Shown one piece after another: positions 19,760 through 42,799 of a stretch of DNA of 46,345 nt (positions are counted from its first letter, which is position 1; each line of letters opens with the position of its first letter). The notes under the pieces were generated by a model. It made no database searches. It saw nothing but the letters and a program-made list of their open reading frames with translations, and had not been told where the DNA came from. Both the position numbers and the translations under genes were made by a program. This DNA comes from a phage: the sequence record LC918680.1. The stretch is one strand, 5' to 3'.

Positions 19760-19782
19760 GCCCCTTTCGGGGCTTTTTTATT
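19759..19782 (+). terminator. intrinsic terminator at end of + strand structural block
   Basis: AGCCCC-TTTC-GGGGCT + TTTTTT. Confidence 0.8.
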
Positions 19783-20002
19783 AACCACCACAGTCGTGAT
19801 CTTTAAAGTTAGACTCCGAAACGTAGTGGAAAGAGAATGGGTATCCAGCACGTAACAGTAGTTCGTCACCTCTTTGCTGAGTACCAAAAACATAAACCGA
19901 GTACTCTGACCCAGCAGATTCATAAATTGCGGTACAAGTGCGCTCAGGCATTGAAGAGCATCCAGTCAGTAATAACGCTGCGCAGATAATAAACTTTTTC
20001 AT
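19781..20002 (-). CDS. small lipoprotein, Cor-like superinfection-exclusion candidate
   Basis: MKKFIICAALLLTGC signal peptide with lipobox; 73 aa; convergent with tail module. Confidence 0.55.
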   Translation of the reverse strand: MKKFIICAALLLTGCSSMPERTCTAIYESAGSEYSVYVFGTQQRGDELLLRAGYPFSFHYVSESNFKDHDCGG

Positions 20003-20168
20003 AAAATCTCCTTAGAAGCCGTTAAAGTTTGAGGCAAGCAGCAGAACCCACACTAAGAAACCAGTTACAGAAGCACCCGCAAAAGTTGAAATTAAGTTAG
20101 TAGTTAATCTCTTGTTTAGGTTGTTTCGTTTCGATGTGGTAATCATAAACCATCATTAAGCTTTGTCT

Positions 20169-20858
20169 TTAGCTATTAGTGCTATTTGCAATAAACACAG
20201 CCTTTGCAAAACCGCGAGGAGTTAGGCTGCGGATTACCTTTGTCTTCTTGCTCTTTCCACCTAACTTCTTGTATTGGTCAGAGAATCCATCGTTAACGCC
20301 CACCGGAATCGCCTTAGGCCATTTAAACCCATTACCAAACCAAATGCATGTCTTCTTAGGATATGCGTCTCTTGGCTTTATTAGGTCGCTAAAAAACGGG
20401 TGTAAATCATCTTCCGGCAAATAGCCTCCGTATTCATATGGGTGGAAAGTCTTATTAGGCTTTCTCCAGAGTGATGACAGTACGCTGATTGGATTCTCAA
20501 TCATGTATGGGACTTCGTACTTATTAGCCAAGTTAAAAGCAACTTTACATGTTTCCGCAGCTTCAATCTGGAAGTTATGGTTAACCAGTCGCTTTCGCTC
20601 AAAGTGCCTTGACCCGCTCACGGCTAAATCCGTACACGGCGGGAACGCTAAAATGATATCAGGCTTCACATCAAAGTCGAAGTCGGCATCTATCCAGACA
20701 TTAACGTAGGTGATGTTCTCATGTCCAAATTTTGCATTTAAATCCACGTAACTACCGTGGTCAGACTCATCAAAGTTGAAACAGTAGCACTCGTGACCAG
20801 CCTCAGCCCAATCTTTCACAGCCAGCCCTGAACCATCAAATAAAGACCAAACAACCAT
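20169..20858 (-). CDS. putative DNA methyltransferase with C5-cytosine MTase-like motifs
   Basis: Motif I-like FDGSGL, Pro-Cys FPPCTDLAVSG, ENV-like IENP; start placed at internal ATG 20858 preceded by conserved ACGAGAGAGG leader (track start 20900 has no RBS); unusually short (229 aa). Confidence 0.5.
   Translation of the reverse strand: MVVWSLFDGSGLAVKDWAEAGHECYCFNFDESDHGSYVDLNAKFGHENITYVNVWIDADFDFDVKPDIILAFPPCTDLAVSGSRHFERKRLVNHNFQIEAAETCKVAFNLANKYEVPYMIENPISVLSSLWRKPNKTFHPYEYGGYLPEDDLHPFFSDLIKPRDAYPKKTCIWFGNGFKWPKAIPVGVNDGFSDQYKKLGGKSKKTKVIRSLTPRGFAKAVFIANSTNS
20170..20184 (-). promoter_or_regulatory. boundary motif copy 3
   Basis: - strand TAGCACTAATAGCTA overlapping MTase stop. Confidence 0.5.
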
Positions 20859-20900
20859 TTTGAAATCCTCTCTCGTTTTTTTGTGTGACCAACTATACAT

Positions 20901-21399
20901 GGTTTTGCGGATTAGTTTTAGCTATTCGTGCTGTTGGTTACGCGTAACCGATGTAACTCTATGTATACCATATGCATCAGCGGGAAATCGTATACGCCTA
21001 ATTACGCTTTGATACGCCATAGTTACATTAAAATATATATATATATCAACCTTTTACTCTTATTATTATTATTATATATATTACTGTGTATATCATGTAA
21101 CTACTGTCATGGAGCGTTCCGGTTATAATTTTTATATCATGTGATTTTATACAGTATTTCGCTGCACCTATACCTATGCACCATCCGCTAAAATTGGTAT
21201 ACACGATATACGCACCATTTACATTGAGCTATAGCTGGGCTCAGGCAGTGAAAAACGTAACCAATAGAAATGTCTACACGTAGTTACGGATTTATACGCG
21301 TATACTTGATTAATTAATCGGCGATACCAATTGGACTGTGTGTCTTGCGTGCGGCATCATTAACGCATCGAAAGCAAACAGCCACAGAGAGATAGAGAA
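20901..21399. repeat. control region A: gene-free AT-rich divergent intergenic region, paralogous to region B
   Basis: Shares with region B the blocks TATATATATCAACCTTTTACT, (ATT)n-TATATATA microsatellite and AGCTATAGCTGGGCT...CGTAACCAAT; contains palindromes GGTTACGCGTAACC (20936-20949) and TATACGCGTATA (21293-21304). Confidence 0.7.
20919..20933 (-). promoter_or_regulatory. boundary motif copy 4 (degenerate)
   Basis: - strand CAGCACGAATAGCTA upstream of MTase leader. Confidence 0.4.
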
Positions 21400-21585
21400 A
21401 TGAAAATGCCTGATAAATTAAAAGCGCACACAGTAATACTACCAACGTATTCTCCTGTTGCTATATTCCTTACGCATGACATGGCTGTTAGATTCTGCGA
21501 ATTATCATACGGTAAACAATGGGAGCAAACAGGCGCAAGGATAGAAAAGACAACATCAGAACACATCAAAGTCATTAAGGGATAA
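21400..21585 (+). CDS. hypothetical early protein
   Basis: First + strand ORF after control region A; CATCGAAAGC...AGAGAG leader upstream. Confidence 0.45.
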   Translation: MKMPDKLKAHTVILPTYSPVAIFLTHDMAVRFCELSYGKQWEQTGARIEKTTSEHIKVIKG

Positions 21586-21589
21586 AATC

Positions 21590-21784
21590 ATGCCACACTT
21601 CATAATTAAAGAGAAAAACAACGCACTGTTCGGCGATTGCTACTTTGGTGGCCCAGCCGGATACACTACCAACAAATCTGAAGCCGACCAATTCGAGACA
21701 AAGGAAGAGGCCAAGGAGTTGCTGACAGGATACTTCACTGAAGAAGATTTGAAAGCTATTAAGATTGTTAAAATTAAGGATTGA
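21590..21784 (+). CDS. hypothetical protein
   Basis: 64-aa ORF, closely spaced with neighbours. Confidence 0.5.
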   Translation: MPHFIIKEKNNALFGDCYFGGPAGYTTNKSEADQFETKEEAKELLTGYFTEEDLKAIKIVKIKD

Positions 21785-21787
21785 ACC

Positions 21788-22759
21788 ATGACATTTAAAG
21801 TTTATACGAACGACGAGCTAACAAATGAATCCTATCACGAAGAGCAAGACCATATCTCTGGCTCTTCACTGGCTGAGATTCTTGCTACCTCACCAGCTAA
21901 ATGGAAGTTTAAGCAGCGCAATAACTCTAGCGCAGCACTTAAGTTTGGCACACTAAGTCACTGCATGATGCTAGAGCGCGAGGTGTTTGACTCAACATAC
22001 ATGCGAGCTACTGACTTTGACGAAGTGGAAGGATTGATTACTAGCCAAACGGCTTTATCCGCAGCGCTTAAAAAAGTTGGAGTTTCAGGCACGTCAGGGA
22101 AGGGTTATAACGAGCTTGTAGAGATGATGTATAAGTGTGGTGAGGATTGGCCTGTTAAATGGTTAATTGAGCAGCAGGAGAGCGCTCATGCGCTAATTAG
22201 TGGCAAAGAGCTCGTTACTGCGAAAGATTACGATAAAGTAATTCAAATGCGAGAGGTTCTAACTAATATTCCGGCATATGATTCGGTCATTAATTCACCA
22301 TCAGCGCAGAAAGAACTATCAATATTTGGTGAGATTCTCGGTTGTGGTGTTAAGGTTCGTCTTGACCATGTGGATGTTGTTGATGGTATTGTCTACATTA
22401 CTGACTACAAAACCACAGCAGATGCAAGTCCTAGAGGATTTGGGAAGTCAGCTTATGACCATGGATACCTGTGCAAGATGGCACTTCAGCGAGATCTGTT
22501 TGTGAAAGCCTTTAATGAGAAACGCAAGGTTGTAGTTCGCCTTTTGGCACAGGAGAAAGCAGAGCCTTACTTACCTATGTGCTACACGCTTACGGATGAG
22601 CAGCTTCGCATTGGGCGCTTACAATATTTAGAGGCTCTGGCTGTTTACAAGCAGTGCAAGGAACTTGATGTGTGGCCTGGGTATAGCAATGGGATTACAG
22701 AGCAAGATTTGATGATTCCTGAGTGGGTAAGTAAGCAGTATCAAGAACTTCTAAAATAG
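21788..22759 (+). CDS. PD-(D/E)xK family exonuclease (recombination exonuclease)
   Basis: VRLDHVDVVDGIVYITDYKT gives D...D-x-K nuclease motif; adjacent to Erf-like and SSB genes. Confidence 0.7.
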   Translation: MTFKVYTNDELTNESYHEEQDHISGSSLAEILATSPAKWKFKQRNNSSAALKFGTLSHCMMLEREVFDSTYMRATDFDEVEGLITSQTALSAALKKVGVSGTSGKGYNELVEMMYKCGEDWPVKWLIEQQESAHALISGKELVTAKDYDKVIQMREVLTNIPAYDSVINSPSAQKELSIFGEILGCGVKVRLDHVDVVDGIVYITDYKTTADASPRGFGKSAYDHGYLCKMALQRDLFVKAFNEKRKVVVRLLAQEKAEPYLPMCYTLTDEQLRIGRLQYLEALAVYKQCKELDVWPGYSNGITEQDLMIPEWVSKQYQELLK

Positions 22760-22771
22760 CACTAATTGCTA
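22757..22771 (+). promoter_or_regulatory. boundary motif copy 5
   Basis: TAGCACTAATTGCTA; starts at exonuclease stop TAG. Confidence 0.6.
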
Positions 22772-22829
22772 AAGACAAAATTAACAGGTGGGGTATCATT
22801 ACCCCATCGAAACGAAAGAGAGATGGGGA

Positions 22830-23480
22830 ATGAAAACTTCTGAGCAAAACAAGCAAGTATTGAAGGCGTTATTCGAGGCTAAATCAAAGTTTGCTAAGGC
22901 TGAAAAGTCTAAGCAGAACTCACACCTCAAGAATAAGTACGCTACTTTAGATGATGTTTTAGCAGCTGTAGAGCCAGGCTTGGCTGATAGCGGACTGGTG
23001 ATGTTTCAGTCGATGATTGATGATGATGTAAGCACTCGTATTAAGGTTGAAACAACCATTTATCACGCAGAGTCTGGGGAGTGGGTTAGCTTCCTGACAA
23101 TCGTCCCAATCAGTAAGCAAGATGCTCAAGGTTATGGGTCATCACTTACATACGCTCGCCGTTACGCAATCACAGCGGCGTTAGGTTTAAGCCAGGCAGA
23201 TGATGATGGTCAGCTTGCAGTTAAGGGTATCAACTCATTTAAGAAAGATTTAGCTAAGTGCAACACTCTTGATGACCTGCGCGATGTATACAAAGAAGCT
23301 AAGCAGTCTCTTGATTCAGCTGGTTGGCTGGTGATTGAACCTCACATTATTGAGCGTAAGGCAGAGATTCAGGCTAATGCAACTAACGGCTTCAATCCTG
23401 CAAAACCTAAACAGGTTGCACAAAAGTCTGTTCAAGAAGAAAAAGTTGAAGTACAATCTCAAGAAATCGACACATTCTAA
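22830..23480 (+). CDS. Erf-like single-strand annealing protein
   Basis: ATG 22830 after conserved leader (track start 22788 lies inside the upstream hairpin); sits between exonuclease and SSB; family call from overall resemblance only. Confidence 0.55.
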   Translation: MKTSEQNKQVLKALFEAKSKFAKAEKSKQNSHLKNKYATLDDVLAAVEPGLADSGLVMFQSMIDDDVSTRIKVETTIYHAESGEWVSFLTIVPISKQDAQGYGSSLTYARRYAITAALGLSQADDDGQLAVKGINSFKKDLAKCNTLDDLRDVYKEAKQSLDSAGWLVIEPHIIERKAEIQANATNGFNPAKPKQVAQKSVQEEKVEVQSQEIDTF

Positions 23481-23520
23481 TTTAACGGAGCTGCGGCCCC
23501 AACATTAAGAGAGAAAGAAA

Positions 23521-23952
23521 ATGAGTCATGTAATCACTGGCGTTATCCGTCGCGCTCCGTTCACTAAAGAAGGTCAGAATGCAAATGGCAGTTGGAAGAT
23601 GTACGCGGTTGATTTAAGTGAGCGTTACAAGGATAAAGATGGTCAATCTCAGTATAGCAACTATCGTGCCGTCTTCTTCGCAAAGGAATCAATGCTTACA
23701 TGGTATAACGAAGCGTTTCAGGAAGGGAAGATTGTTAGCGTAAGTTGTGAGACGTTAGCATTAGATGTTCGAGATAAAGATGGCAAGACTTACATAACAA
23801 TTAACATGAATAATCCTCGTCTTGAGTTTAGTCAGCGTGGTGAGGGTGTACAGCAACATAAAAATACAGAGCAACAACAGCGCCATCAACCGCAACAGCA
23901 ACAGCAACAACCACAACAGCAAAACACATTCGACGGAGATATTCCATTCTGA
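23521..23952 (+). CDS. ssb: single-stranded DNA-binding protein
   Basis: OB-fold-like N-region, Gln/Pro-rich linker, acidic tail ending DGDIPF. Confidence 0.8.
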   Translation: MSHVITGVIRRAPFTKEGQNANGSWKMYAVDLSERYKDKDGQSQYSNYRAVFFAKESMLTWYNEAFQEGKIVSVSCETLALDVRDKDGKTYITINMNNPRLEFSQRGEGVQQHKNTEQQQRHQPQQQQQQPQQQNTFDGDIPF

Positions 23953-23960
23953 TAAAAGAT

Positions 23961-23984
23961 AAAGCCCCTTTCGGGGCTTTTTTA
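23961..23984. terminator. bidirectional intrinsic terminator between convergent ssb and tail-fibre genes
   Basis: A-run + GCCCC-TTTC-GGGGC + T-run. Confidence 0.8.
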
Positions 23985-26516
23985 TGCAAGAGAAACTCTT
24001 GAGTTTGCAAATATCAAGGCGTCCCTTTGATTATCAAATTCTACAACAAAATAATCAGCAAGGCTTAATACCATACCAGTTAATCCATTGAGGTTAATGT
24101 TAAGGTTTGCAACGCCAGAAACCGAAGCCTGACCAACTCCAAATGTATGAACCCACTTACCACGCTCAGTAAACACACTGCCTAATGATGCGCTACCAAA
24201 AATGTTTATAATACCATCAGCACCGCCTTGAATCCTGTTTGCAGAAATACCCCAAACATACCATTTTCCGGAAGTTATATTAAAGCGACCATTTATCAAT
24301 TCGTACTGAGCCGCACCATCTAATTCGTAGTATCCAGATGATTGCGAGTGTATACCCCTTGTATCAGAACCTTCCCTTGACGACCCTGTTCCACCAAAGT
24401 CGTTTCCACCAGTACCAAAAGGCCTCCTGACTAAAACAATTCCGGAATCGGGGTTAAAAACTCGACCTTTAGTAACATATCCTCTAACAGATAGGTTTGA
24501 AGTGCCAGTTATCTTGGCTGTCTGTGATACCAGCGACTCAACTATAACGTTTGATGTTGAAGATCCATTCAGGTATGCATCCTTAGCAAAAATAATACTG
24601 TTCGAATCAAGAGAGAAACTTTGGTGCCCATCAGCGTTATCAAACCTGCACCCATAAGTTACAAGGTTTGAATTTGATAACTCAATGTTATTAATATAAG
24701 AATGCTCAGCAAAGAAAACGGACGTATCGATGAGCTTCAAAACCCTTGGGAGTTCAGCTCCCTCACCTACGTTAATTGCTCCCCCAGTTGCTATCGCTTC
24801 AAACCATACGTTAGACAATCCGCAAGGTGATGTTGGGCAATCTCCAGGTTTATTCTTTAACCTTATACCGCCGCCAGCAGAGGCCTCCATTATTGAATCC
24901 CTAATCCACCACCCACCAATTCCTCCAGCAACAGGGTTCGTTGCGCTACTTGTGCTTGTCGCATCTAGCATTACTGAATATTGAGAGATTGTATCTGAGT
25001 GGTATCCGTATAAAGTGTCCGCTCCTATATGCATTTCGTCATGAGCTTTGGCTCGATACCCGTAATTCGCATTTCTAATACTTACGTTTCTGTAGGTATT
25101 TCCAATGTTGCCAGCATTTTTCCTTATACCAACATCCAGGTTATTGAAGTAAAGCCTATCCAATACAACCCTTCCAGCATAAGGGTCATCCGGGAATTGA
25201 AAGCCGTTATTACCTTGTATTGCAGTACCTGTAAACTGCAAATCCGATAAATGCTTTTGCCTCCAGTGCGGAACCGATAGCGTTGAGGTGAGTCCGGTTT
25301 CAAAAGGTTTAACACTTATTACGGTATTATATCCAGAGCCTGATATGTTCCTGCCAGCAAAGGAGTAGTTATTACTCTCATAAGTTCCCGGGCTTATAAC
25401 TACCGACCCGCCATCGCCAGCGGCTTCTATTGCTGAAGATATTGAGCCGCTATAGCTTGATGTGCTTTTTGAATCTGTATTTAAAATTGATGACACCTCA
25501 CCCTTTGAGTAAACATCAAGGTTGGTTCTTGCCACGGACTTATCTGCAATGTCTGAAAGATTCAATGATTTTTGAAACGTCTCGGATTTTGAGTAAACAT
25601 CAAGCAACCCCCTAACCCTTGACGCGCTTGATCCACCAGTTGCAGCATTACCGCCAGGCAAGCTTAGTACTTCCCTTACATAAAAAACCCTAGATCCAGT
25701 CTCACCAGAAATTGTGACATCTGCAATCCTAAAATTTGAGTCTGACCCAGTAGACGGAGATAACCTTAATACATTAGCCGAATTAACACCCCTAGATGCA
25801 ATAACATCAATACAAATAGGAGTTGTTGAAACCGGAAACATTGAACTAATTTCTTTTGGGGTGTTTAACATATTCCTAAGTGTGCACTGATAACGACCTC
25901 CGGAATAAAATTGCATTGTTTGCCAATCTAAAGAGGTAAGTAATGGCGTTGTCGTGCTACCTATTCCGTGATTAGCAAAGTAAGCAACAGCCGCTGTATT
26001 TCCAGCTGCATTTATTGCCTCAACCGTCCTGTTATATGAATTTTGTGCGTTAGTGCTTGCACCAACTGCGGTCGCTGCACTTTCAGCAGCAGCAATCTGA
26101 CTAGCTAACGCCTCCGCAGCTCCGGTAGTTGACTGAGTTGCCAGTTGTTCAAAACGAGGCCAATCAAAAGTATCTTGACCAATAAATTGCAGTAGACTTT
26201 CAATAGAAGTCTCTTTTGACTGGTAGTAACGCAATGTTTCCGCAACATCCTGTGCCAACCCCTGAACAGTAATTCCATCATGAGCAAGAATTGCGTAACC
26301 AGTACCAGCGGGAACAGTTTCAGAACTTGGATTATAAACATTAACCTGAGTATCGCTGATGATTTCAGAGATGGTGTAAATTTTCAGAGGGCTGGTTTTG
26401 AAAATGATAGTAGCACCTACACGAATCAGTGTAAGAGGTGCTTTCCATGTAGTACCTACGCCAGTAACCTCGCCATTTGAGGCTAGTGATGCTGTTCCTA
26501 AGTCATAAATTGCCAT
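23982..26516 (-). CDS. tail fibre/tailspike protein
   Basis: 844-aa ORF, Gly/Ser/Asn/Thr-rich with repetitive beta-rich character; own promoter-like TGGTAGAAT upstream. Confidence 0.7.
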   Translation of the reverse strand: MAIYDLGTASLASNGEVTGVGTTWKAPLTLIRVGATIIFKTSPLKIYTISEIISDTQVNVYNPSSETVPAGTGYAILAHDGITVQGLAQDVAETLRYYQSKETSIESLLQFIGQDTFDWPRFEQLATQSTTGAAEALASQIAAAESAATAVGASTNAQNSYNRTVEAINAAGNTAAVAYFANHGIGSTTTPLLTSLDWQTMQFYSGGRYQCTLRNMLNTPKEISSMFPVSTTPICIDVIASRGVNSANVLRLSPSTGSDSNFRIADVTISGETGSRVFYVREVLSLPGGNAATGGSSASRVRGLLDVYSKSETFQKSLNLSDIADKSVARTNLDVYSKGEVSSILNTDSKSTSSYSGSISSAIEAAGDGGSVVISPGTYESNNYSFAGRNISGSGYNTVISVKPFETGLTSTLSVPHWRQKHLSDLQFTGTAIQGNNGFQFPDDPYAGRVVLDRLYFNNLDVGIRKNAGNIGNTYRNVSIRNANYGYRAKAHDEMHIGADTLYGYHSDTISQYSVMLDATSTSSATNPVAGGIGGWWIRDSIMEASAGGGIRLKNKPGDCPTSPCGLSNVWFEAIATGGAINVGEGAELPRVLKLIDTSVFFAEHSYINNIELSNSNLVTYGCRFDNADGHQSFSLDSNSIIFAKDAYLNGSSTSNVIVESLVSQTAKITGTSNLSVRGYVTKGRVFNPDSGIVLVRRPFGTGGNDFGGTGSSREGSDTRGIHSQSSGYYELDGAAQYELINGRFNITSGKWYVWGISANRIQGGADGIINIFGSASLGSVFTERGKWVHTFGVGQASVSGVANLNINLNGLTGMVLSLADYFVVEFDNQRDALIFANSRVSLA

Positions 26517-26538
26517 TGTAAAGTCTCCATTTGTAAAG

Positions 26539-26553
26539 TAGCACTAATTGCCA
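26539..26553 (+). promoter_or_regulatory. boundary motif copy 6
   Basis: TAGCACTAATTGCCA between tail fibre and primase genes. Confidence 0.45.
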
Positions 26554-26580
26554 AAATTCATTCTACCATCTTTCAGGCAA

Positions 26581-26602
26581 TAAAAAACCTCCCGAAGGAG
26601 GT
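26581..26602 (-). terminator. intrinsic terminator (- strand) after primase
   Basis: Plus-strand AAAAAA + CCTCC-CGAA-GGAGG, i.e. hairpin then U-run on - strand. Confidence 0.7.
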
Positions 26603-27525
26603 TAGTTTAGCAAGTCGTTTGCTTTGTACACTTTCTTTCGTATGCCTGTTTTAAATGACTCACCGTCATTAGGAACTACAACATCAACACCCCTATCGTC
26701 AGCAACAGCGAGTATATCGCTATCAGAATCACGGCAAGCAATTCTGAACTTCCTTGACTTGTCGCGGTGGATAACCATCTCCATATTGTAACAGGAGAAA
26801 GCAACAAACACTTCGCGCCCACCAGTAGCAAGGTGAACACGTATGCCATCAATATAATTGTCAACAACATAAGTATAACTATCATCCTGCTTAGAACCAA
26901 TAACGGAAACAGAATCACGAGTGTAATCACCAGCAAGGAACTTAACATTTGAATCCTCATCAATAAACATTACGTTACAGAACTCATCACTAAGCCCATC
27001 TTCATAAACCATCGAACAAGGGATTGCGTGAATCATTGAACCATTTTTAGCTATACCAACATCAAAACCAAACTCGTCATAAATACCCTCGTATGTCGTG
27101 AGTGGACTAGATTCAACTCGCTGAGTCCTCTCCATGACCTCAAGAACTTTCTTGTGGTCTACTTGAGCGCCCATTTTATAACGCAGCGTTCTTGATGCTT
27201 GCTTGTTAGCTTTAACTATAACCTCAATTGGTGTTAAGTTCAGCCAGTCACCAAGCAAATTTACTGAATCGGCGAAGGACAATCCAGTGCACTTCATGAC
27301 CCACCCTATACCGGAGTCACTTCCGCATTTCGAACAAATTGCCGCGCCATTTCCTTTTTCACTGCCTATTTCGTCGGTAAATCTGAATCTGTCAGTGCCA
27401 AAGCAGTATGGGCATGGTCCGTGCTTCTTACTTAGGTGTCTATCATTCCAACCAAGTTCCTTTGCATAAAATGATTTCCACAATCCGGCCATCTTAGGTA
27501 TAACTTCATTCTTATCGTAATTCAT
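26602..27525 (-). CDS. DNA primase (zinc-binding + Toprim-like)
   Basis: CPYC...CSKC zinc-ribbon near N-terminus, acidic D-rich C-terminal region. Confidence 0.7.
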   Translation of the reverse strand: MNYDKNEVIPKMAGLWKSFYAKELGWNDRHLSKKHGPCPYCFGTDRFRFTDEIGSEKGNGAAICSKCGSDSGIGWVMKCTGLSFADSVNLLGDWLNLTPIEVIVKANKQASRTLRYKMGAQVDHKKVLEVMERTQRVESSPLTTYEGIYDEFGFDVGIAKNGSMIHAIPCSMVYEDGLSDEFCNVMFIDEDSNVKFLAGDYTRDSVSVIGSKQDDSYTYVVDNYIDGIRVHLATGGREVFVAFSCYNMEMVIHRDKSRKFRIACRDSDSDILAVADDRGVDVVVPNDGESFKTGIRKKVYKANDLLN

Positions 27526-27881
27526 TTGCTTAAACCGTGATTTTCGTGAAAGTTGTATTTTCTCTCTGCTTCAATTCTTACTTTATACGCCTGCTCTGGA
27601 GTATCTAAGTTACCAAGGTGTAGCTGCTTGCCGTCAACCTTGATGTAAGCCTTAAATTTTCCGTGATTTAGCTTTGCCACTCCACAATAACCAGTTGTTG
27701 ATAAAACGCTAAGCTTGCAATTTCTTGAGTTACCTTGATTTGTTGTTACTCTTAGGTTTTCTATTCTGTTATCTAATTTGTTATGGTTTATATGATCAAT
27801 GTAGTCGCCATTTTGAAGTTCTCCATTAAACATCTCCCACACAACTCTATGTACATAAGTCCTAAAGCCATTAACAGACAC
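27522..27881 (-). CDS. HNH homing endonuclease with AP2-type DNA-binding domain
   Basis: HNH motif DHINHNKLDNRIENLRVTT followed by AP2-like GYCGV...FKAYI segment. Confidence 0.8.
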   Translation of the reverse strand: MSVNGFRTYVHRVVWEMFNGELQNGDYIDHINHNKLDNRIENLRVTTNQGNSRNCKLSVLSTTGYCGVAKLNHGKFKAYIKVDGKQLHLGNLDTPEQAYKVRIEAERKYNFHENHGLSK

Positions 27882-28052
27882 TTTGTAATAGCCAGATGTA
27901 GATAGTGAGTTGCACTCATCGCCAACCTTAACACGTCTTGCAGTGCTAATCTTTCAATGCAATTTGCCATCTACATAGTAAAAATAATCATGCCAGTTCA
28001 TTTTCTTCTCCCCAATAAAAAGGGATGTACCGATTATGGCACATCCAATTAT

Positions 28053-28526
28053 TTAATCTTTAGCTTTTCGTGCTGCTTCGTTGGCAATCTTATTCTTGCG
28101 CCATGGTCGACATGGTGGCTTTGTTGCTAGTTCAGCTTCGGTAACAACCCGCAGCATATGGCGTTTCTTGCATCTAAGCGTTAATGGCTTACCGTTTCCG
28201 TCGAATTGCAGGTCTGGTCGGCAGAACGTAGCTCTAAAGCCTTCCTTATTTCGCTTGTATGCATTGTGAGCCCTCTGGGCACCTCGAGCCGAAATCATCC
28301 CGCGATCAAACCATTGCTCTACAGTCTGGTGAGATACATTTAACTGCTTGGCGATATTGGCCTTCGTGCCGTAGAAATCAAGAACCATCTCCAGACGAGC
28401 TCGTAGCCCAGCCTTTACTTCATCTTTCAATACGTAGTAGCCTGACGGTCGTTTGCGCTGTTTCTTGTCTTGCGTGCGGATGGTTCCGTTATTGCCGTTG
28501 ATAGTTCGCTTGTCAATTTCACACAT
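28053..28526 (-). CDS. basic HTH DNA-binding protein
   Basis: HTH-like IAKQLNVSHQTVEQWF; highly basic termini. Confidence 0.45.
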   Translation of the reverse strand: MCEIDKRTINGNNGTIRTQDKKQRKRPSGYYVLKDEVKAGLRARLEMVLDFYGTKANIAKQLNVSHQTVEQWFDRGMISARGAQRAHNAYKRNKEGFRATFCRPDLQFDGNGKPLTLRCKKRHMLRVVTEAELATKPPCRPWRKNKIANEAARKAKD

Positions 28527-28539
28527 CTCATTACCTCAA

Positions 28540-37407: not shown

Positions 37408-38991
37408 TTACCCCAGCAATAGTGGATTAATGTAAATTTTATCACCAATCAGGCATGTGTAGTTTTTCTCATCAAGCATAGGAATCAAGTGGTCCTTAAT
37501 GCGAGTCATAATTCCAGCCTGAGCTTCAAAAGGTTTAACCTTGCGTGCAGCCTCATACAACGAGCGAACACCAACAACACCTTTACCATTCTTGCCCTGC
37601 TTAATCAGGATATCAACCAGCTTGTTCATCTCGGCATTGTCACCAGCATGACCAGCAGCACTAGCGGATGATAAATAAGTCTTGCTTAGTTCGTTGAAAA
37701 TCATAACCGCTTCCTGCATTGTATCCAGTTCAATCTCTCTTGACTTTTGAGGGCTGGATCCGGCTGGTGAGAACCAGTTACGAATTACGTGCAGAACAGA
37801 AGCGATGCGGATTGCTTGCTTATCAAACTTACCAAGAGCACCGCGCAACATTGTGTGAGAATACTTGCCACCATCACCAAGATGAGGCTCCATCTCTTGA
37901 CGAGCGCGGTTAAGGTAACGCATTGATGACGCGCTTACAGTAAGTTTCACTTCAACTTCATTCATAATCTCATGAACAAGACGGAAATAGTCTGCTTTCA
38001 GGCCGTCATCAATAGCCTCATAGGTTGAATCACCATTTTCATCAACAAATACACGTTCGCCAAGAAATGATTTTTCACGCACCAGAAGGAAACGCTCAGA
38101 TACACCAATACCACGCGCACCAGCATTCATAATGGCATTGATTGTTTCATCCTGAGCAATTACGGAGATGCATCCCATAGCCACAAAGCTCATGTTATTT
38201 TCTGCGTTCGCACGGGCAATTGACACATTACCTGCATCCCATGCTTTCAGCACGAGCTCGCTGTTCGTTTTCTTCGAGCCATCACCGTAAGTCATGCCTA
38301 ACAGTGAGTTGACGCTAGTAGCCTCATCAGAGATTACCGCAAAATTACCCTGGCGATTGTTGATTCGCGCAAGACCTTCCGGAGTAGTATCGGAGACAGG
38401 GAATACTATATCGCATAGCTTCTCGAGCTTCTCCTCTAAATCCTCCTTCTCCTCAAAAAGTGAAGCCATTTCAGAAGGTGATTTCTCCTGCTTCATCTCT
38501 TTAGCCAGAGCGGACAGTTTAGCCATAATCTTTTTTCGATCACGTTTACGTACTTCATTCAACCGCTCAGTCTCAGCAATCATCGGCGCAATTGATAGCG
38601 AGTTAATGGCTGATTTACCAGTTGAAGGCGGCTGACTTGTTACCACGTACAAAGATGTTGGCTGTTGGGTTCCATGATACTCGACAGTAAAACGCCCAAG
38701 CATTGCAGCAGAAACACAACCAAGAAAGTGCATGTAAACTGACGACTCAGGGAACTGAACCGAGCGAGCGATATTAGCCGATAGCTTACCAACAACATCA
38801 ATATCATTACCGAGTGAGATTACTGGATACTTATCATTACCTGTATCAATCTCGACAGGTGCTTTCCAGAACGATTGAGAATGTCGATAGCCATTGGCAT
38901 TAATAGCCACGCGAAGCGGTGGTAGGTTTTCATTGGCAGCGATTGCCATAACCTGCTCAACAGATAGTTTATCTTCGTTGAAATCAAACAT
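37408..38991 (-). CDS. P-loop NTPase (DUF3987-like), putative replication-associated ATPase
   Basis: Walker A SQPPSTGKS and Walker B-like AVISDEAT; 527 aa; boundary motif and conserved leader upstream. Confidence 0.55.
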   Translation of the reverse strand: MFDFNEDKLSVEQVMAIAANENLPPLRVAINANGYRHSQSFWKAPVEIDTGNDKYPVISLGNDIDVVGKLSANIARSVQFPESSVYMHFLGCVSAAMLGRFTVEYHGTQQPTSLYVVTSQPPSTGKSAINSLSIAPMIAETERLNEVRKRDRKKIMAKLSALAKEMKQEKSPSEMASLFEEKEDLEEKLEKLCDIVFPVSDTTPEGLARINNRQGNFAVISDEATSVNSLLGMTYGDGSKKTNSELVLKAWDAGNVSIARANAENNMSFVAMGCISVIAQDETINAIMNAGARGIGVSERFLLVREKSFLGERVFVDENGDSTYEAIDDGLKADYFRLVHEIMNEVEVKLTVSASSMRYLNRARQEMEPHLGDGGKYSHTMLRGALGKFDKQAIRIASVLHVIRNWFSPAGSSPQKSREIELDTMQEAVMIFNELSKTYLSSASAAGHAGDNAEMNKLVDILIKQGKNGKGVVGVRSLYEAARKVKPFEAQAGIMTRIKDHLIPMLDEKNYTCLIGDKIYINPLLLG

Positions 38992-39048
38992 TACTTCTCT
39001 CCGTGTTGTTATGAGCGGCCATTATATCAATAGCCGCTTATAATGCAT

Positions 39049-39063
39049 TATCAATTAGTGCTA
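39049..39063 (-). promoter_or_regulatory. boundary motif copy 11
   Basis: - strand TAGCACTAATTGATA upstream of DUF3987-like gene. Confidence 0.5.
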
Positions 39064-39221
39064 TTTAGTAAGATGCAATCTATCTTGTAGTAGTCAAAGT
39101 GATTTTCTGAAGATATTTCTTTGTTATATTTAAACTCCTGTGCTTTGAATTCTTCATCGAAAGCGGCAATCACTTCGCTTCCATCATAGTGTGTGCAACC
39201 ACTTACAATGTATAATTTCAT
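39051..39221 (-). CDS. hypothetical small protein
   Basis: 56-aa ORF, start overlaps upstream stop (ATGA); C-terminus LNSTN encoded by boundary motif; below track cutoff. Confidence 0.4.
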   Translation of the reverse strand: MKLYIVSGCTHYDGSEVIAAFDEEFKAQEFKYNKEISSENHFDYYKIDCILLNSTN

Positions 39222-39607
39222 TTGTATTGAGCCTCAAAGTGGTAAGTTTCACACAACGTATAAAAGCCAACATCTTCGCTGCGATATAGCTGCCAGGCGT
39301 TGCCATCTTCATCGTAAATGTATCCAGCTGACTGACCAAGTCCGCTATGCATGTTGACCTGGTATCGCTTACCTTCTTTGAAGTCTTTCTTAACGCCAGA
39401 CTTATGGTTAACCTTTGTGCAGTAAAGAGTTTTGGTTTTAATGTATTTTCCACGTTCTTCCAGGTTGATCCATTTGCCGTCTTTTTTGATTTGCTCAAAT
39501 TCAACTTCCTCAGCGACACCGTTAACCCACTGGTGAATCTTTTTAACGCGAGCTTTAAATAGCTTGTTGTCGTTGCTAATGAAATTTTTGGTTATCGTAG
39601 TAGTCAT
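39218..39607 (-). CDS. hypothetical protein
   Basis: 129-aa Lys-rich ORF. Confidence 0.5.
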   Translation of the reverse strand: MTTTITKNFISNDNKLFKARVKKIHQWVNGVAEEVEFEQIKKDGKWINLEERGKYIKTKTLYCTKVNHKSGVKKDFKEGKRYQVNMHSGLGQSAGYIYDEDGNAWQLYRSEDVGFYTLCETYHFEAQYK

Positions 39608-39768
39608 TATTTTAATCTCTTAGTTGTCAACATGAATTTGTTTGGTACTGATTTGCGCACAATACGCACAACAATCTTATCAAACTTCTGAACTAAACCG
39701 TAAATCTTACCATCTAGCGACGCCCTGAGAACCGCCTCTTCCATCTCGTCATAAAAGTTGTCGAACAT
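39607..39768 (-). CDS. hypothetical small protein
   Basis: Start placed at ATG 39768 after conserved CATCGAAACGAAAGAGAG leader (track start 39834 is TTG within the motif). Confidence 0.4.
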   Translation of the reverse strand: MFDNFYDEMEEAVLRASLDGKIYGLVQKFDKIVVRIVRKSVPNKFMLTTKRLK

Positions 39769-39827
39769 GATCTCTTGCTCTCTTTCGTTTCGATGGAGTA
39801 AATATACGCCATCCGTGGCGGTGAGTT

Positions 39828-39992
39828 TTAGCAATTAGTGCTATTTTTTCTGGCCTTCTCAATTGCCTTCAACATAATCTCGTGAGACTCAAGCAGGTCC
39901 TCGTTAAACCAGTCCCCGCAAGGCCAACCCTTTCCGCTGTAAGCACTTATGACTTCCAGATCGAAATAGTTTATCTCAGATGGTAAAAGCAT
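39828..39992 (-). CDS. hypothetical small protein
   Basis: 54-aa ORF; C-terminus KNSTNC encoded by boundary motif; start overlaps upstream stop; below track cutoff. Confidence 0.4.
   Translation of the reverse strand: MLLPSEINYFDLEVISAYSGKGWPCGDWFNEDLLESHEIMLKAIEKARKNSTNC
39829..39843 (-). promoter_or_regulatory. boundary motif copy 12
   Basis: - strand TAGCACTAATTGCTA perfect 6-3-6. Confidence 0.6.
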
Positions 39993-40195
39993 TATTCAAT
40001 CACCTTAAAAGTTGCGATGCCGTGGATGATTACGTAATCAAGGCATTTAAGCGCCTGGAACGTGTCGTGATGCTTGTGTGGACGTTCGCCGGTAACAAGG
40101 CACATATCATTTTTAAACTCGGTAGCGTTGTATTCAGAGCCCTTATTGAAGGCATCGTTAAAGTCTTTAATTACGTTCGTGCATAATAGTTTCAT
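39992..40195 (-). CDS. hypothetical protein
   Basis: 67-aa ORF. Confidence 0.5.
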   Translation of the reverse strand: MKLLCTNVIKDFNDAFNKGSEYNATEFKNDMCLVTGERPHKHHDTFQALKCLDYVIIHGIATFKVIE

Positions 40196-40380
40196 TTTAC
40201 TACCTCAAACTCTCCAGGGTGGATAACTAATGGCTTGGCTTTACCATCCATTATTACAACAGTTCCATTTTCGTGTTCCATGAATACCTCGTAAACACCT
40301 CCAGGTTCAAGGCCGTAGAATTCGTATTCGTCATCGTCAAACCCATCTGTCTTACTTAGCGCTATTATTTTTACCTTCAC
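40192..40380 (-). CDS. hypothetical protein
   Basis: GTG 40380 with SD GAGGAGG 5 nt upstream (track TTG start 40422 lacks RBS); first - strand gene leaving control region B. Confidence 0.5.
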   Translation of the reverse strand: MKVKIIALSKTDGFDDDEYEFYGLEPGGVYEVFMEHENGTVVIMDGKAKPLVIHPGEFEVVK

Positions 40381-40436
40381 ATATCCCTCCTCGTTGTTGA
40401 TGAGCGAACTATAACTCCGCAATACCTAAATGTCTT

Positions 40437-40450
40437 TAGCAAAAAGTGCT
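40437..40450 (-). promoter_or_regulatory. boundary motif copy 13 (spacer variant)
   Basis: - strand TAGCACTTTTGCTA at edge of control region B. Confidence 0.4.
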
Positions 40451-41053
40451 ATTAGTTGGATTTATTTATTGTTGCAGATATTGCAATGATTAATCTTACT
40501 ATTGCACATATAACAATATTGCATCGAATGCAATGATGTTTTTGATTGTTGCGGGATTTGCAATGATTGATGTGAGGGTGAATGAATGGTGAATGAACTA
40601 CCATACAAGTTGATTTTGATTCTTGCTGAGCCAATTTGGATATACACGTTATCGAAGTTATGGTGTGTATATGAGGTGCGCTTCCGAAGAATCATACACG
40701 CCTACCACGCTAGATTACGCAATGGTTACATAATAATATCTATATATATCAACCTTTTACTATATTATTATTATTATTATATATATGTATGTATATGGTG
40801 TAGATTGGTCGTATGGATGGGTCGATAGTTTTTCTATGAAAACTACTAATTTTATCTATATAGATACATATGCATACCCCCGGCGAATCCGCGTAAAATA
40901 TTACACAGGGTAATTACACCAGCTATAGCTGGGCTGAGAGGTCAAAAAGCGTAACCAATGCAGATATAAACACAACATAACACTTGATAACGCGTATATT
41001 CATGATACCATGGTTTCATCTTAACGAAGAGCAACCAATCAGGAGTAACGAAT
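40451..41053. repeat. control region B: gene-free AT-rich divergent intergenic region, paralogous to region A; iteron-like TGCAATGAT repeats
   Basis: Same conserved blocks as region A at about 40741-40790 and 40920-40975; three TGCAATGAT copies plus further TTGCA half-sites at about 40470-40570; coordinates +/-2. Confidence 0.7.
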
Positions 41054-42724: not shown

Positions 42725-42725
42725 A

Positions 42726-42740
42726 TAGCACGAATTGCTA
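42726..42740 (+). promoter_or_regulatory. boundary motif copy 16
   Basis: TAGCACGAATTGCTA directly after stop TAA. Confidence 0.6.
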
Positions 42741-42799
42741 AACATGAATTGGGATAGGTTGTTATACTTATCCCATCAAAACGAGATGAGGAATTGACG

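What the first reader, a model, noticed from the sequence alone, without database searches (positions are those of the whole stretch)
20901..41053. Two paralogous ~0.5-kb AT-rich control regions at the two divergent strand-switch points
Region A (20901-21399) and region B (about 40451-41053) each separate a - strand gene block from a + strand early block. They share ~45-55-bp blocks: TATATATATCAACCTTTTACT with an (ATT)n-(TA)n microsatellite, and AGCTATAGCTGGGCT...AAAAA.CGTAACCAAT, which contains the palindrome AGCTATAGCT. Region A also has perfect palindromes GGTTACGCGTAACC and TATACGCGTATA; region B has a related ACGCGTATA element. These are candidate divergent early promoter/operator regions, possibly also origin-like (AT-rich unwinding element plus repeats).
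Basis: seen in the sequence. Interest (0 to 1): 0.68.

Follow-up and report, generated by a model that had tools for sequence, protein, structure and literature searches.

The report
Duplicated origin-like control element, T1-family phages
This Rtp/T1-type coliphage carries two ancient copies of a strongly conserved non-coding DNA module (phased short repeats, an IHF-consensus site and an easily melted AT spacer of fixed length) that looks more like the family's still-unidentified replication origin(s) than like a simple promoter region.

Summary
Regions A (20859-21399) and B (40381-41053) share a homologous core of about 350 bp (alignment z=35; z=9.5 with the microsatellite masked). Each complete Braunvirinae genome examined has exactly two copies, both on the + strand.

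The interpretation needs revising. The divergent promoters sit at the edges of each region: a leftward promoter carrying the known 21-nt repeat, and a rightward sigma70-like promoter plus leader. The shared core lies between them.

The centre of the core has fixed geometry in all 24 copies examined:
- four repeats at -52/-42/-32/-21 from a perfect IHF consensus;
- a spacer that ends with the next repeat array 41±1 bp after the IHF core;
- (TTA)n and (TA)n counts inside that spacer trade off, so total length is kept.

The two AT tracts are the least stable duplex in the genome. The cores are as conserved as, or more conserved than, neighbouring genes. They show no RNA structure, no conserved reading frame, no DnaA boxes and no gene conversion.

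Region B also has a B-only block of TTGCA-N5-TGCAA palindromes. The T1 and TLS genome records start inside that block, so it is a pac candidate.

Best reading (confidence about 0.4): an iteron/IHF/DUE-type replication origin pair. Main rival (0.3): transcription control only. Nothing has been tested experimentally.

The parts
20892..20937 (-). Leftward promoter of region A. It carries the 21-nt family repeat (ACAGCACGAATAGCTAAA, 20934->20917) and a -10-like TATAGT (20897->20892). The leader and Shine-Dalgarno sequence run to ATG 20858.
   Evidence: (D4); the repeat family is described for TLS/T1/Rtp in PMC11447400
20936..20967 (+). Array 1: the palindrome GGTTACGCGTAACC overlapping three 9-10-bp-phased repeats (CGTAAC 20943, TGTAAC 20952, TGTATA 20962).
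20991..21027 (-). Array 2: four direct repeats (TATACG, ATTACG, GATACG, GTTACA) spaced 10, 10 and 11 bp apart. They start at -52/-42/-32/-21 relative to the IHF core in every A-type copy.
21044..21056 (+). Perfect IHF core consensus WATCAANNNNTTR (TATCAACCTTTTA), preceded by an A/T tract.
   Evidence: 4 sites in the genome, 2 of them these; invariant or nearly so in 24 copies
21057..21085 (.). (TTA)5(TA)n spacer. Together with the IHF core it forms the AT tract 21023-21082, the second least stable 60-mer in the genome. The next array starts a constant 41±1 bp after the IHF core.
21086..21101 (+). Array 3: GTGTATATCATGTAAC, two 9-bp-phased repeats inverted relative to array 2. In A it forms the inverted repeat AGTTACAT...ATGTAACT that brackets the AT tract.
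21198..21223 (-). Array 4: TATACA, TATACG, TTTACA at 9 and 11 bp spacing (GGTATACACGATATACGC...TTTACAT).
21227..21266 (.). Shared block AGCTATAGCTGGGCT..AAAAACGTAACCAAT. It is paralogous to 40921-40960.
   Evidence: (D9). In IME542-B and the Sd1-group B copies it is replaced by other GC-rich sequence.
21294..21305 (.). Palindrome TATACGCGTATA. Relatives have ACGCGTAA here, about 30 bp upstream of the rightward -35.
21331..21399 (+). Rightward promoter and leader of region A: TTGGAC (21331-36), 18 nt, CATCAT (21355-60; TATAGT in most relatives), leader CATCGAAAGCAA, Shine-Dalgarno sequence, ATG 21400.
   Evidence: alignment
40408..40452 (-). Leftward promoter of region B: the 21-nt repeat (40452->40435), AAGACA-N17-TATAGT (40436->40408), leader, Shine-Dalgarno sequence, GTG 40380.
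40455..40640 (.). B-only block with no counterpart in A. It opens with GGATTTAT (40458-65). It holds TTGC-N7-GCAA palindromes at 40472-86, 40519-33 and 40549-63, plus a near copy at 40497-513. It is a candidate pac/terminase or regulator site. The T1, Rtp and TLS genome records start inside the equivalent block.
40640..40673 (+). B counterpart of array 1 (ATACACGTTATCGAAGTTATGGTGTGTATATG; GTTAT/GTTAT/GTATA at 10-bp phase).
40693..40732 (-). B counterpart of array 2 (ACACGC, CCACGC, TTACGC, GTTACA) at -53/-42/-32/-21 from the IHF core.
40747..40759 (+). Identical IHF consensus TATCAACCTTTTA.
40760..40788 (.). (TTA)5(TA)n spacer. The AT tract 40730-40789 is the least stable 60-mer in the genome.
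40789..40806 (+). B counterpart of array 3 (ATGTATATGGTGTAGAT).
40921..40960 (.). Shared block AGCTATAGCTGGGCT..AAAAAGCGTAACCAAT.
   Evidence: D9
40984..41053 (+). Rightward promoter and leader of region B: TTGATA (40984-89), 16 nt containing ACGCGTATA (40991-99), extended -10 TGaTACCAT (41003-11), leader CATCTTAACGAAG, Shine-Dalgarno sequence, ATG 41054 (a DUF7174 gene).

Best explanation
The shared core is a cis-acting nucleoprotein assembly site and most likely the phage's replication origin, present as two ancient copies ('oriA' and 'oriB'). It sits between flanking promoters but is separable from them.

Proposed mechanism:
1. A phage-encoded sequence-specific protein occupies the helically phased YGTAWM repeats on both sides of the centre.
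2. Host IHF binds TATCAACCTTTTA and bends the DNA, bringing the inverted arrays 2 and 3 together.
3. The stress melts the length-constrained (TTA)n(TA)n spacer, which is the weakest duplex in the genome.
4. The phage's own AAA+/MCM-like helicase (DUF3987, with a C-terminal winged helix) and its Zn-ribbon primase then load there, independently of DnaA.
5. Transcription from the adjacent early promoters may assist opening.

The extra palindrome block in region B is a separate module, probably pac or a regulator site.

What is shown: the sequence anatomy, the fixed geometry, the duplex stability, the conservation, the two-copy state and the protein folds. What is inferred: protein binding, melting and initiation of replication.
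For: 1. The paralogy is real and ancient, and it is held by selection rather than gene conversion. In the central block, A-A identity is 0.92 and B-B is 0.71. A-B identity is 0.674 within a genome and 0.675 between genomes. A profile of the module finds exactly two strong + strand hits per complete Braunvirinae genome.

2. The geometry is fixed in all 24 copies from several subfamilies. Repeats lie at -52/-42/-32/-21 from the IHF core and the next array starts at +40 to +42, while the (TTA)n and (TA)n counts trade off. Helically phased repeats plus a nucleoid-protein site plus an A+T-rich DUE is the published signature of iteron origins (PMC5043065).

3. The two AT tracts are the two least stable 40-, 60- and 100-mers in the 46-kb genome (z=5.5-5.6; the next best is 3.5).

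4. YGTAWM repeats are 7-fold (A) and 4-fold (B) denser than the genome average. Region A is the densest 400 bp in the genome (19 copies against 4.0±1.9 in shuffles), and the copies form four phased arrays.

5. T1 and TLS have the same two-region layout but with lineage-specific motifs shared by both regions within each phage. In T1, 5 of the 6 genome-wide TGTAACA copies lie in the two regions. In TLS, 4 of 8 GTGAACA copies do. This is what co-evolution with a phage-encoded binding protein predicts.

6. The module behaves as an autonomous unit. In TLS the A-type copy lies between two + strand genes. Indels are tolerated between the module and the flanking promoters but not inside it.

7. The cores are as conserved as, or more conserved than, neighbouring genes. 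Against Rtp and JulesPiccard, the central modules are 83-87% identical and the whole A core 78-82%. The whole B core is 74-79% (partial coverage in JulesPiccard). For comparison, exoVIII/erf/ssb are 73-76% and the capsid gene is 80%.

8. The phage has its own primase (Zn_Ribbon_Prim) and a DUF3987 protein. Its AF2 model (pLDDT 88) best matches MCM subunits and ends in a winged-helix-like alpha-beta-alpha-alpha-beta-beta unit.

9. There are no DnaA boxes in either region.

10. The family's origin is explicitly unknown (PMC11447400; PMC7718038).

11. SPP1, another lytic pac phage, has two discrete initiator-bound origin regions (PMC5737612).
Against: - There is no experimental evidence of any kind: no marker-frequency data, no TSS maps, no binding data.
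- The repeats have only a 5-6 bp core and a degenerate consensus that I derived from these same sequences, so the enrichment P-values are post hoc.
- The perfect IHF consensus is absent from the T1 and TLS equivalents, which have only one-mismatch candidates.
- GC skew shows only transcription-coupled asymmetry and no origin signal.
- No initiator has been identified. The DUF3987-to-MCM match is modest (TM about 0.35), and no sequence-level link to P4 alpha or other origin-binding proteins was found.
- AT-rich, IHF-containing, repeat-laden regions between divergent early operons are also typical of complex promoter/operator regions.
- One relative's GenBank record annotates predicted promoters on the AT tract.
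Confidence: 0.4

Rival explanations
1. Transcription control only. On this reading the core is an enhancer/operator array for the divergent early operons. A phage regulator (for example the Cro-like HTH protein at 28053-28526) and IHF would assemble on it to activate, and later shut off, the flanking promoters. The AT tract could itself be a strong early promoter or UP-like element. The comparison is with Mu Pe/Pc or lambda pL with IHF, which I recall from established knowledge rather than from a source read here.
For: - In most genera both regions lie between divergent operons that contain early-type genes: exoVIII/erf/ssb; DUF7174 and many small ORFs; DUF3987 helicase.
- The rightward promoters are the only family-type promoters that lack the 21-nt repeat, so they may depend on the core instead.
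- Palindromes overlap or adjoin them: ATTGG-N6-CCAAT at the -35 in A-type relatives, and ACGCGTATA in the B spacer.
- Promoter-like hexamers occur on the AT tract (TTTACT-18-TATATT), and phiSITE predictions are annotated there in CEB_EC3a.
- A spacer constraint would also keep the tract length fixed.
Against: - Promoter-like hits in the two regions are no more frequent than in shuffles (5 against 3.6±1.9, and 5 against 4.6±2.3).
- At the fixed position, the -10-like hexamer differs among B copies (TATATT, TATATA, ATTATA, TTATAT).
- The central module is 250-300 bp from the rightward promoters, and variable-length DNA lies between them in B.
- In TLS the A copy is not at a divergent point.
- Nine or more phased repeats in four arrays, plus the weakest duplex in the genome, is more than known phage operator regions need.
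Confidence: 0.3
2. Packaging or recombination site. On this reading the core is a recognition site for terminase (a primary pac in B and a secondary pac in A) or for the phage recombination system. The architecture resembles P1 pac or lambda cosB (repeats flanking an IHF site), a comparison recalled from established knowledge.
For: - The T1, Rtp and TLS genome records begin inside the region-B equivalent. The TLS pac site was placed there by restriction mapping.
- Repeats flanking an IHF bend are the layout of known packaging sites.
- Region A heads the exoVIII/erf/ssb recombination operon.
- The module sits at a mosaic junction: the gene to the left of A differs between relatives (Cor lipoprotein, Roi/KilA-like protein, methyltransferase-like protein), while A itself is conserved.
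Against: - The record starts fall in the B-only palindrome block, 200-270 bp to the left of the shared core. Region A lacks that block.
- T1-type phages are described as packaging from a single pac site (PMC11447400).
- The A copy, which has no known link to pac, is the more constrained of the two.
- How the T1 and Rtp record starts were chosen could not be checked, because those papers are not held.
Confidence: 0.1
3. The core encodes a conserved non-coding RNA or a small protein.
For: The core shows high nucleotide conservation. Several GenBank records place 'hypothetical protein' ORFs over it. The window has ORFs at 20928-21128 and 40586-40828.
Against: - Rfam at gathering thresholds finds only the tRNA.
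- RNAalifold energies across the shared core equal those of column shuffles on both strands. The only signals are strand-symmetric DNA palindromes.
- The two ORFs cross the microsatellite in different frames after a 2-nt indel (a poly-Leu run against a poly-Tyr run), and they are interrupted in relatives.
Confidence: 0.04
4. Chance low-complexity similarity between two AT-rich intergenic regions.
For: The most eye-catching shared block is AT-rich and repetitive.
Against: z is 9.5 with the microsatellite masked. The homology is colinear over about 350 bp. Both regions are conserved in more than 125 phage records. Geometry is identical in 24 copies.
Confidence: 0.01

Closest known systems
Iteron-type replication origins with an IHF site and an A+T-rich DUE (pSC101, R6K gamma ori, lambda ori; reviewed in PMC5043065)
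   Same: Short repeats in phase with the DNA helix, a nucleoid-protein (IHF) site, and an adjacent easily melted A+T-rich segment. Geometry is intolerant of indels.
   Different: There are no DnaA boxes. The repeat core is only 5-6 bp and the repeats sit in four arrays of both orientations. No rep gene is adjacent or contains the site. The element is present twice. Neither binding nor initiation has been shown.
Bacillus phage SPP1 oriL/oriR (PMC5737612)
   Same: A lytic, pac-packaging siphovirus with two discrete, related genome regions. In SPP1 the initiator binds both with similar affinity. oriL consists of repeats (AB boxes) plus an AT-rich DUE.
   Different: SPP1 oriL lies inside gene 38, and its initiator (G38P), helicase loader and DnaB-type helicase are known. 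Here the elements are intergenic, the initiator is unknown, and the helicase is an AAA+/MCM-like DUF3987 protein.
Satellite phage P4 ori/crr (recalled from memory: two cis sites about 4.5 kb apart sharing alpha-protein-binding TGTTCACC repeats)
   Same: Two separated cis regions carry the same short repeat. TLS's enriched motif (GTGAACA/TGTTCAC) resembles the P4 repeat. GenBank records describe the T1-family primase as similar to P4-type alpha primases.
   Different: No alpha-type fused primase-helicase-winged-helix protein is present; the primase and helicase are separate genes. No sequence match to solved P4 alpha or other initiator structures was found. The resemblance was not tested beyond this.
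Divergent early control regions with an IHF site (Mu Pe/Pc operator region; lambda pL with IHF sites; from established knowledge)
   Same: Located between divergently transcribed early operons, with an IHF consensus and palindromic operator-like sequences near the promoters.
   Different: Here the promoters are at the edges and the conserved module is 30-300 bp away from them. The module persists in TLS without divergent transcription. It contains phased direct-repeat arrays and the weakest duplex in the genome.
The 21-nt intergenic repeat aaATAGCACnnnTTGnTAAAA of TLS/T1/Rtp (PMC11447400)
   Same: One copy forms the leftward promoter module at the left edge of each region (20934-20917 and 40452-40435). 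The window has about 17 copies in all.
   Different: It is a dispersed family that is already described and is not part of the A/B paralogous core. The rightward promoters of A and B lack it.
P1 pac / lambda cosB (from established knowledge: repeats flanking an IHF site)
   Same: Repeat arrays on both sides of an IHF bend, and region B contains the conventional genome start.
   Different: The shared core exists twice. The record starts map to the B-only palindrome block, not to the core.

Membership tests
Iteron-type replication origin | [quoted passage not shown] | tested here: met
   Repeats lie at 9-11 bp spacing in four arrays in A. They sit at -52/-42/-32/-21 from the IHF core in 24 copies. 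The motif was defined post hoc.
Iteron-type replication origin | Adjacent A+T-rich DNA unwinding element of low duplex stability | tested here: met
   21023-21082 and 40730-40789 are the two least stable 60-mers in the genome (z=5.5 and 5.6; next best 3.5).
Iteron-type replication origin | Binding site for a nucleoid-associated protein (IHF/HU) | tested here: met
   A perfect WATCAANNNNTTR is found at the same place in A and B; only 4 such sites exist in the genome. It is conserved in the Rtp-, Sd1- and XGG1-type copies. T1 and TLS have only one-mismatch candidates. This is consensus only; no binding data exist.
Iteron-type replication origin | A replicon-specific initiator protein binds the repeats | not testable with these tools
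   Candidates only: the DUF3987 AAA+/MCM-like helicase with a C-terminal winged-helix-like unit and the Cro-like HTH protein. Lineage-specific motifs are consistent with such a protein.
Iteron-type replication origin | Replication initiates at the site, or the site confers replication in cis | not testable with these tools
   No data in the searchable literature. GC skew is uninformative.
Iteron-type replication origin | DnaA boxes (common in plasmid iteron origins, not universal in phage origins) | tested here: not met
   No TTWTNCACA in either region.
Divergent sigma70 early promoter/operator region | -35/-10 hexamers with 16-18 bp spacing pointing at each flanking operon | tested here: met
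   Present at the edges: 20934->20892, 21331-21360, 40452->40408 and 40984-41011. All are conserved in relatives, together with a common leader.
Divergent sigma70 early promoter/operator region | The shared (paralogous) blocks are the promoter/operator elements themselves | tested here: not met
   The core lies between the promoters. Only B's ACGCGTATA falls within a promoter, in its spacer. The central module is 250-300 bp from the rightward promoters, and indels are tolerated in between.
Divergent sigma70 early promoter/operator region | Transcripts initiate there and a regulator binds | not testable with these tools
   No TSS data were found for any Drexlerviridae phage.
pac site (headful packaging start) | Ends of the first headful map to the site | tested here: inconclusive
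   The T1 record starts at the palindrome GTTGCATGGTGTGCAAC, which belongs to the B-only block. The TLS start was placed by restriction mapping plus similarity to P22 pac. This concerns 40455-40640, not the shared core. The basis for the T1 and Rtp coordinates could not be read.
pac site (headful packaging start) | A single site per genome | tested here: not met
   The shared core occurs twice per genome. The B-only block occurs once.
P4 ori/crr two-site system | Two cis regions sharing the same initiator-binding repeats | tested here: met
   The same enriched short motifs occur in both regions of the window, T1 and TLS. This is sequence evidence only.
P4 ori/crr two-site system | An alpha-type primase-helicase with a C-terminal origin-binding domain | tested here: not met
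   The primase (307 aa) and the DUF3987 helicase (527 aa) are separate genes. phmmer against PDB sequences gave no P4 alpha hit.
Structured non-coding RNA | A conserved secondary structure, or a match to an Rfam family | tested here: not met
   Rfam finds only the tRNA. alifold energies equal those of shuffles across the core on both strands.

The most novel reading that the evidence does not exclude
These two elements are the long-missing replication origins of the T1 phage family and work as a two-site system. A phage-encoded protein (the MCM-like DUF3987 helicase through its C-terminal winged helix, or the Cro-like HTH protein) would recognise lineage-specific YGTAWM-type iterons. IHF would fold the inverted arrays together, and a spacer of exactly about 41 bp made of (TTA)n(TA)n would melt. 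The two copies would either fire independently or cooperate through looping, as in P4 ori-crr or SPP1 oriL/oriR. In region B the origin would lie directly next to the packaging start.
Probability: 0.35. Interest if true: 0.7.

Novelty: new member of a known kind. Interest (0 to 1): 0.55.

Why it matters
T1 is one of the classical T phages, and Drexlerviridae are among the most commonly isolated coliphages. Even so, recent genome papers state that no origin of replication has been found for the family (PMC11447400, PMC7718038).

This analysis pins down two compact (about 110-150 bp) modules with exact geometry. That makes the origin question directly testable by marker-frequency sequencing, origin-rescue plasmids and spacer mutants.

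It also separates three things that have been lumped together as 'large intergenic regions':
- the already known 21-nt-repeat promoters;
- a probable pac/palindrome block found only in region B;
- the duplicated core.

Finally, it flags hypothetical ORFs that several GenBank records draw across these regions as probable mis-annotations. For phage engineering, these are cis elements that should not be disrupted, and they may be useful for building T1-dependent replicons.

Tried and rejected
- **Structured RNA.** Rfam at gathering thresholds and an alifold scan with column-shuffle controls on both strands found nothing in the shared core.
- **Coding potential.** ORFs 20928-21128 and 40586-40828 cross the AT tract in different frames and are not conserved.
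- **DnaA boxes.** None in either region.
- **GC/AT skew as an origin signal.** It only tracks transcription direction, including at the third divergent switch.
- **Gene conversion between A and B.** Rejected, because same-genome and cross-genome identities are equal.
- **Copies outside the phage family.** No hits in 5,426 E. coli genomes or in PLSDB plasmids. The invariant 18-mer hits only Drexler-sized viral contigs or fragments in IMG/VR.
- **Sequence homology to solved structures.** The DUF3987 helicase, the primase and DUF7174 gave nothing.
- **DUF7174 as a DNA mimic or binder.** Its composition is neutral (pI 6.2), which gives no clue. Its structure was not predicted.
- **Terminal-domain divergence of DUF3987 as a sign of a specificity domain.** The pattern is suggestive only.
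- **Original papers.** The T1 (Virology 2004) and Rtp (J Bacteriol 2006) genome papers are not held, so I cannot exclude that they comment on these regions.
- **Literature on T1-family transcription, origin or IHF dependence.** Searches returned nothing relevant.

Full report
**Identity of the window.** The window is a complete, circularly permuted genome of an Rtp-like coliphage (Drexlerviridae, Braunvirinae). Its closest relatives are phages ES and AN_ECEAS. Gene order matches Rtp and T1.

Region A lies between a leftward methyltransferase-like gene and a Cor-type lipoprotein gene on one side, and the rightward exoVIII/erf/ssb operon on the other. Region B lies between a leftward operon of small genes that ends in a DUF3987 helicase, and a rightward operon of small early-type genes that begins with a DUF7174 gene.

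**Check of the observation.** The A/B similarity is not low-complexity chance:
- The local alignment scores 126, against 24±3 for dinucleotide-preserving shuffles.
- With the microsatellite masked it is still z=9.5.
- No other part of the genome resembles region A.
- The homology is a colinear core of about 350 bp, not just two blocks.

Four corrections are needed:
- The leftward genes most likely start at 20858 and 40380, behind good Shine-Dalgarno sequences. The intergenic spans are therefore 541 and 673 bp.
- A third divergent strand switch at 28527-28622 lacks the element.
- The left 185 bp of region B has no counterpart in A.
- The perfect GGTTACGCGTAACC palindrome is peculiar to this phage and ES.

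**The promoters are at the edges.** A dispersed module of about 17 copies precedes most operons on both strands. It consists of the inverted repeat TAGCA-N5-TGCTA, then AAGACA, 16-17 nt, TATAGT, then CATCGAAACGA and a Shine-Dalgarno sequence. Its 21-nt upstream part is the 'aaATAGCACnnnTTGnTAAAA' repeat already described for TLS, T1 and Rtp, whose function is unknown (PMC11447400). One copy fires leftward from the left edge of each region (20934->20892 and 40452->40408).

Alignments of 13 A-type and 11 B-type regions from relatives reveal the rightward promoters at the right edges:
- Region A: TTGGAC-N18-TATAGT (CATCAT in this phage) at 21331-21360.
- Region B: TTGATA-N16-TGaTACCAT at 40984-41011.
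- Each is followed by the same kind of leader.

**Anatomy of the shared core.** Reading left to right in A:
- Array 1: three 10-bp-phased repeats (CGTAAC, TGTAAC, TGTATA; 20943-20967).
- Array 2: four repeats on the other strand at 10/10/11-bp spacing (20991-21027).
- An A/T tract ending in TATCAACCTTTTA (21044-21056), a perfect match to the IHF core consensus WATCAANNNNTTR.
- The (TTA)5(TA)n tract.
- Array 3: GTGTATATCATGTAAC, from 21086.
- Array 4 (21198-21223).
- The AGCTATAGCTGGGCT...CGTAACCAAT block.
- The ACGCGT palindrome.

One degenerate motif, YGTAWM, describes all the repeats. Region A holds 19 copies, seven times the genome density and the densest 400 bp in the genome (shuffles give 4.0±1.9). 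B's core holds 10 copies (P=0.003). The B-only block holds none. I derived this motif from the same sequences, so these P-values are descriptive only.

Only four IHF-consensus sites exist in the genome. Two of them are these identical, co-oriented ones.

**Fixed geometry.** In all 24 copies (A and B; Rtp-, Sd1-, XGG1- and Veterinaerplatzvirus-type phages), the left repeats start at about -52/-42/-32/-21 from the IHF core and the right array starts at +40 to +42. The numbers of TTA and TA units differ between copies but compensate for each other. The 'microsatellite' is therefore a length-constrained spacer.

By contrast, a 25-bp insertion is tolerated between the leftward promoter and the core in one clade of A. 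Indels of 10-15 bp are tolerated between the central module and the rightward promoter in B. The central module behaves as an autonomous unit.

**Physical property.** The two AT tracts (40730-40789 and 21023-21082) are the two least stable duplex segments of the genome at window sizes of 40, 60 and 100 bp (z about 5.5; next best 3.5).

**Evolution.**
- Both regions are conserved over nearly their full length in more than 125 phage records.
- Against Rtp and JulesPiccard, the central modules are 83-87% identical and the A core 78-82%. The adjacent exoVIII/erf/ssb genes are 73-76% and the capsid gene 80%.
- Central-block identity is 0.92 among A copies and 0.71 among B copies. A against B is 0.674 within a genome and 0.675 between genomes. 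This means an ancient duplication under parallel purifying selection, with no gene conversion.
- A profile of the module finds exactly two strong hits per complete Braunvirinae genome, both on the + strand.

T1 (Tunavirinae) and TLS (Tempevirinae) are too diverged for blastn. Even so, their equivalent gaps are paralogous to each other (scores 66 and 63 against about 22±2.7 for shuffles). They carry lineage-specific repeats shared by both gaps: in T1, 5 of 6 genome-wide TGTAACA copies; in TLS, 4 of 8 GTGAACA copies. In TLS the A-type gap lies between two + strand genes, so the element does not depend on divergent transcription.

**What the core is not.**
- It is not a structured RNA.
- It is not a gene.
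- It does not depend on DnaA boxes.
- It was not detected in E. coli chromosomes or plasmids.
- GC skew is uninformative, because it tracks transcription at all three divergent points.

**The B-only block (40455-40640).** It begins with GGATTTAT. It contains three perfect TTGC-N7-GCAA palindromes and one near-perfect one within 92 bp, against two elsewhere in 46 kb. It is conserved into T1.

The T1 reference record starts exactly at one of these palindromes and carries a terminal-repeat annotation. Rtp's record starts 13 bp from the equivalent point. The TLS start was placed in the equivalent gap by restriction mapping plus similarity to the P22 pac sequence.

This block is therefore a reasonable pac candidate (about 0.5). 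It could instead be an operator array for a dimeric HTH protein. It is distinct from the shared core.

**Mechanism.** The combination seen here is the published signature of iteron-type origins (PMC5043065):
- helically phased short repeats in inverted arrays;
- a nucleoid-protein bend site;
- the weakest duplex in the genome, held at fixed length.

A two-copy arrangement has a precedent in SPP1 oriL/oriR (PMC5737612).

The phage supplies its own Zn-ribbon primase and a DUF3987 protein. The confident AF2 model of that protein (pLDDT 88, pTM 0.86) best matches MCM-type AAA+ helicase subunits (E=6e-6, TM about 0.35). It ends in an alpha-beta-alpha-alpha-beta-beta unit typical of winged helices. 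Its termini diverge more between lineages than its core does.

The family's origin is explicitly unidentified. I therefore rate 'replication origin pair embedded between early promoters' as the best single explanation, but only at about 0.4. Every functional step is inferred. The IHF consensus is not conserved in T1 or TLS. A transcription-only role (about 0.3) fits the location equally well.

**Novelty and score.** If correct, this is a new member of a known kind (iteron/IHF/DUE origin) in a classical phage family whose origin is unknown. Within the literature I could search, the duplicated module and its geometry have not been described, but I could not read the original T1 and Rtp genome papers. 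A specialist would not find it startling. It does, however, turn an acknowledged open question into a precise experiment with a few clear readouts. Interest: 0.55.

Noticed in passing
window 28623-31757: The SNF2-type helicase gene (Rtp53/T1 gp22 homologue) is 'fractured'. The N-terminal part carries an intein N-splicing half (ORF 28623-29432). A LAGLIDADG endonuclease ORF lies in another frame (29261-30115). An intein C-splicing half plus Helicase_C follows (ORF 30048-31757). Nine in-frame stops separate the two halves. Phage ES has the same three-ORF split, whereas Rtp's gene is intact and 1.14 kb shorter. This is either a split intein with a free-standing homing endonuclease or a decayed intein.
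   Followed up: partly
window, about 17 sites, e.g. 22756-22830, 32175-32250, 42725-42800, 39844-39770 (-): The 21-nt-repeat promoter modules each contain a hairpin-forming inverted repeat that spans the -10-like TATAGT. The stem sequence differs from copy to copy but stays complementary (for example GGGGTATCATTACCCC, GAGTTGGTGTATTGTCAACTC, GGGATAGGTTGTTATACTTATCCC). Each is followed by the conserved CATCGAAACGA. The 21-nt repeat itself is already described (PMC11447400); the covarying stems are unexplained.
   Followed up: no
window 40455-40640: A B-only block of TTGCA-N5-TGCAA palindromes begins with GGATTTAT. The T1, Rtp and TLS genome records start inside the equivalent block, so it is a probable pac or regulator site. 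The half-site geometry (5 bp, N5, 5 bp) mirrors the TAGCA-N5-TGCTA of the 21-nt repeat.
   Followed up: partly
window 21400-21585: An extra 61-aa gene with no family match sits between region A and the 64-aa gene that directly follows region A in ES and other relatives. Several GenBank records (Rtp rtp46, JulesPiccard bas03_0033, IME542, BEK3, EC3a) annotate longer ORFs that extend back over the conserved promoter and core. These are probably mis-annotated starts.
   Followed up: partly
window 19781-20858 (-) and the equivalent positions in relatives: The genes immediately to the left of region A vary between relatives. Here they are a methyltransferase-like protein (phrog_757) plus a Cor-type lipoprotein. 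Elsewhere they are a lipoprotein plus a membrane protein, or a Roi/KilA/anti-repressor-like DNA-binding protein. Region A itself stays conserved, so the element sits at a mosaic junction.
   Followed up: no
window 28527-28622: A third divergent strand switch lies between the Cro-like HTH regulator gene and the helicase gene. It is only 96 bp long and carries a degenerate 21-nt repeat (CAATAGCATTTTTTGTTAAAC), but none of the A/B core.
   Followed up: yes
window 45139-45214: A tRNA-Arg (anticodon CCU) lies in the early region upstream of terS. This is the only Rfam hit in the window.
   Followed up: yes
GenBank MG065688.1 (hit H1): A record named 'Campylobacter phage A110b' (44,238 bp, unannotated) matches 96% of the 20600-21800 query at 78% identity. 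It therefore looks like a Drexlerviridae coliphage-type genome, and the host label may be wrong.
   Followed up: no
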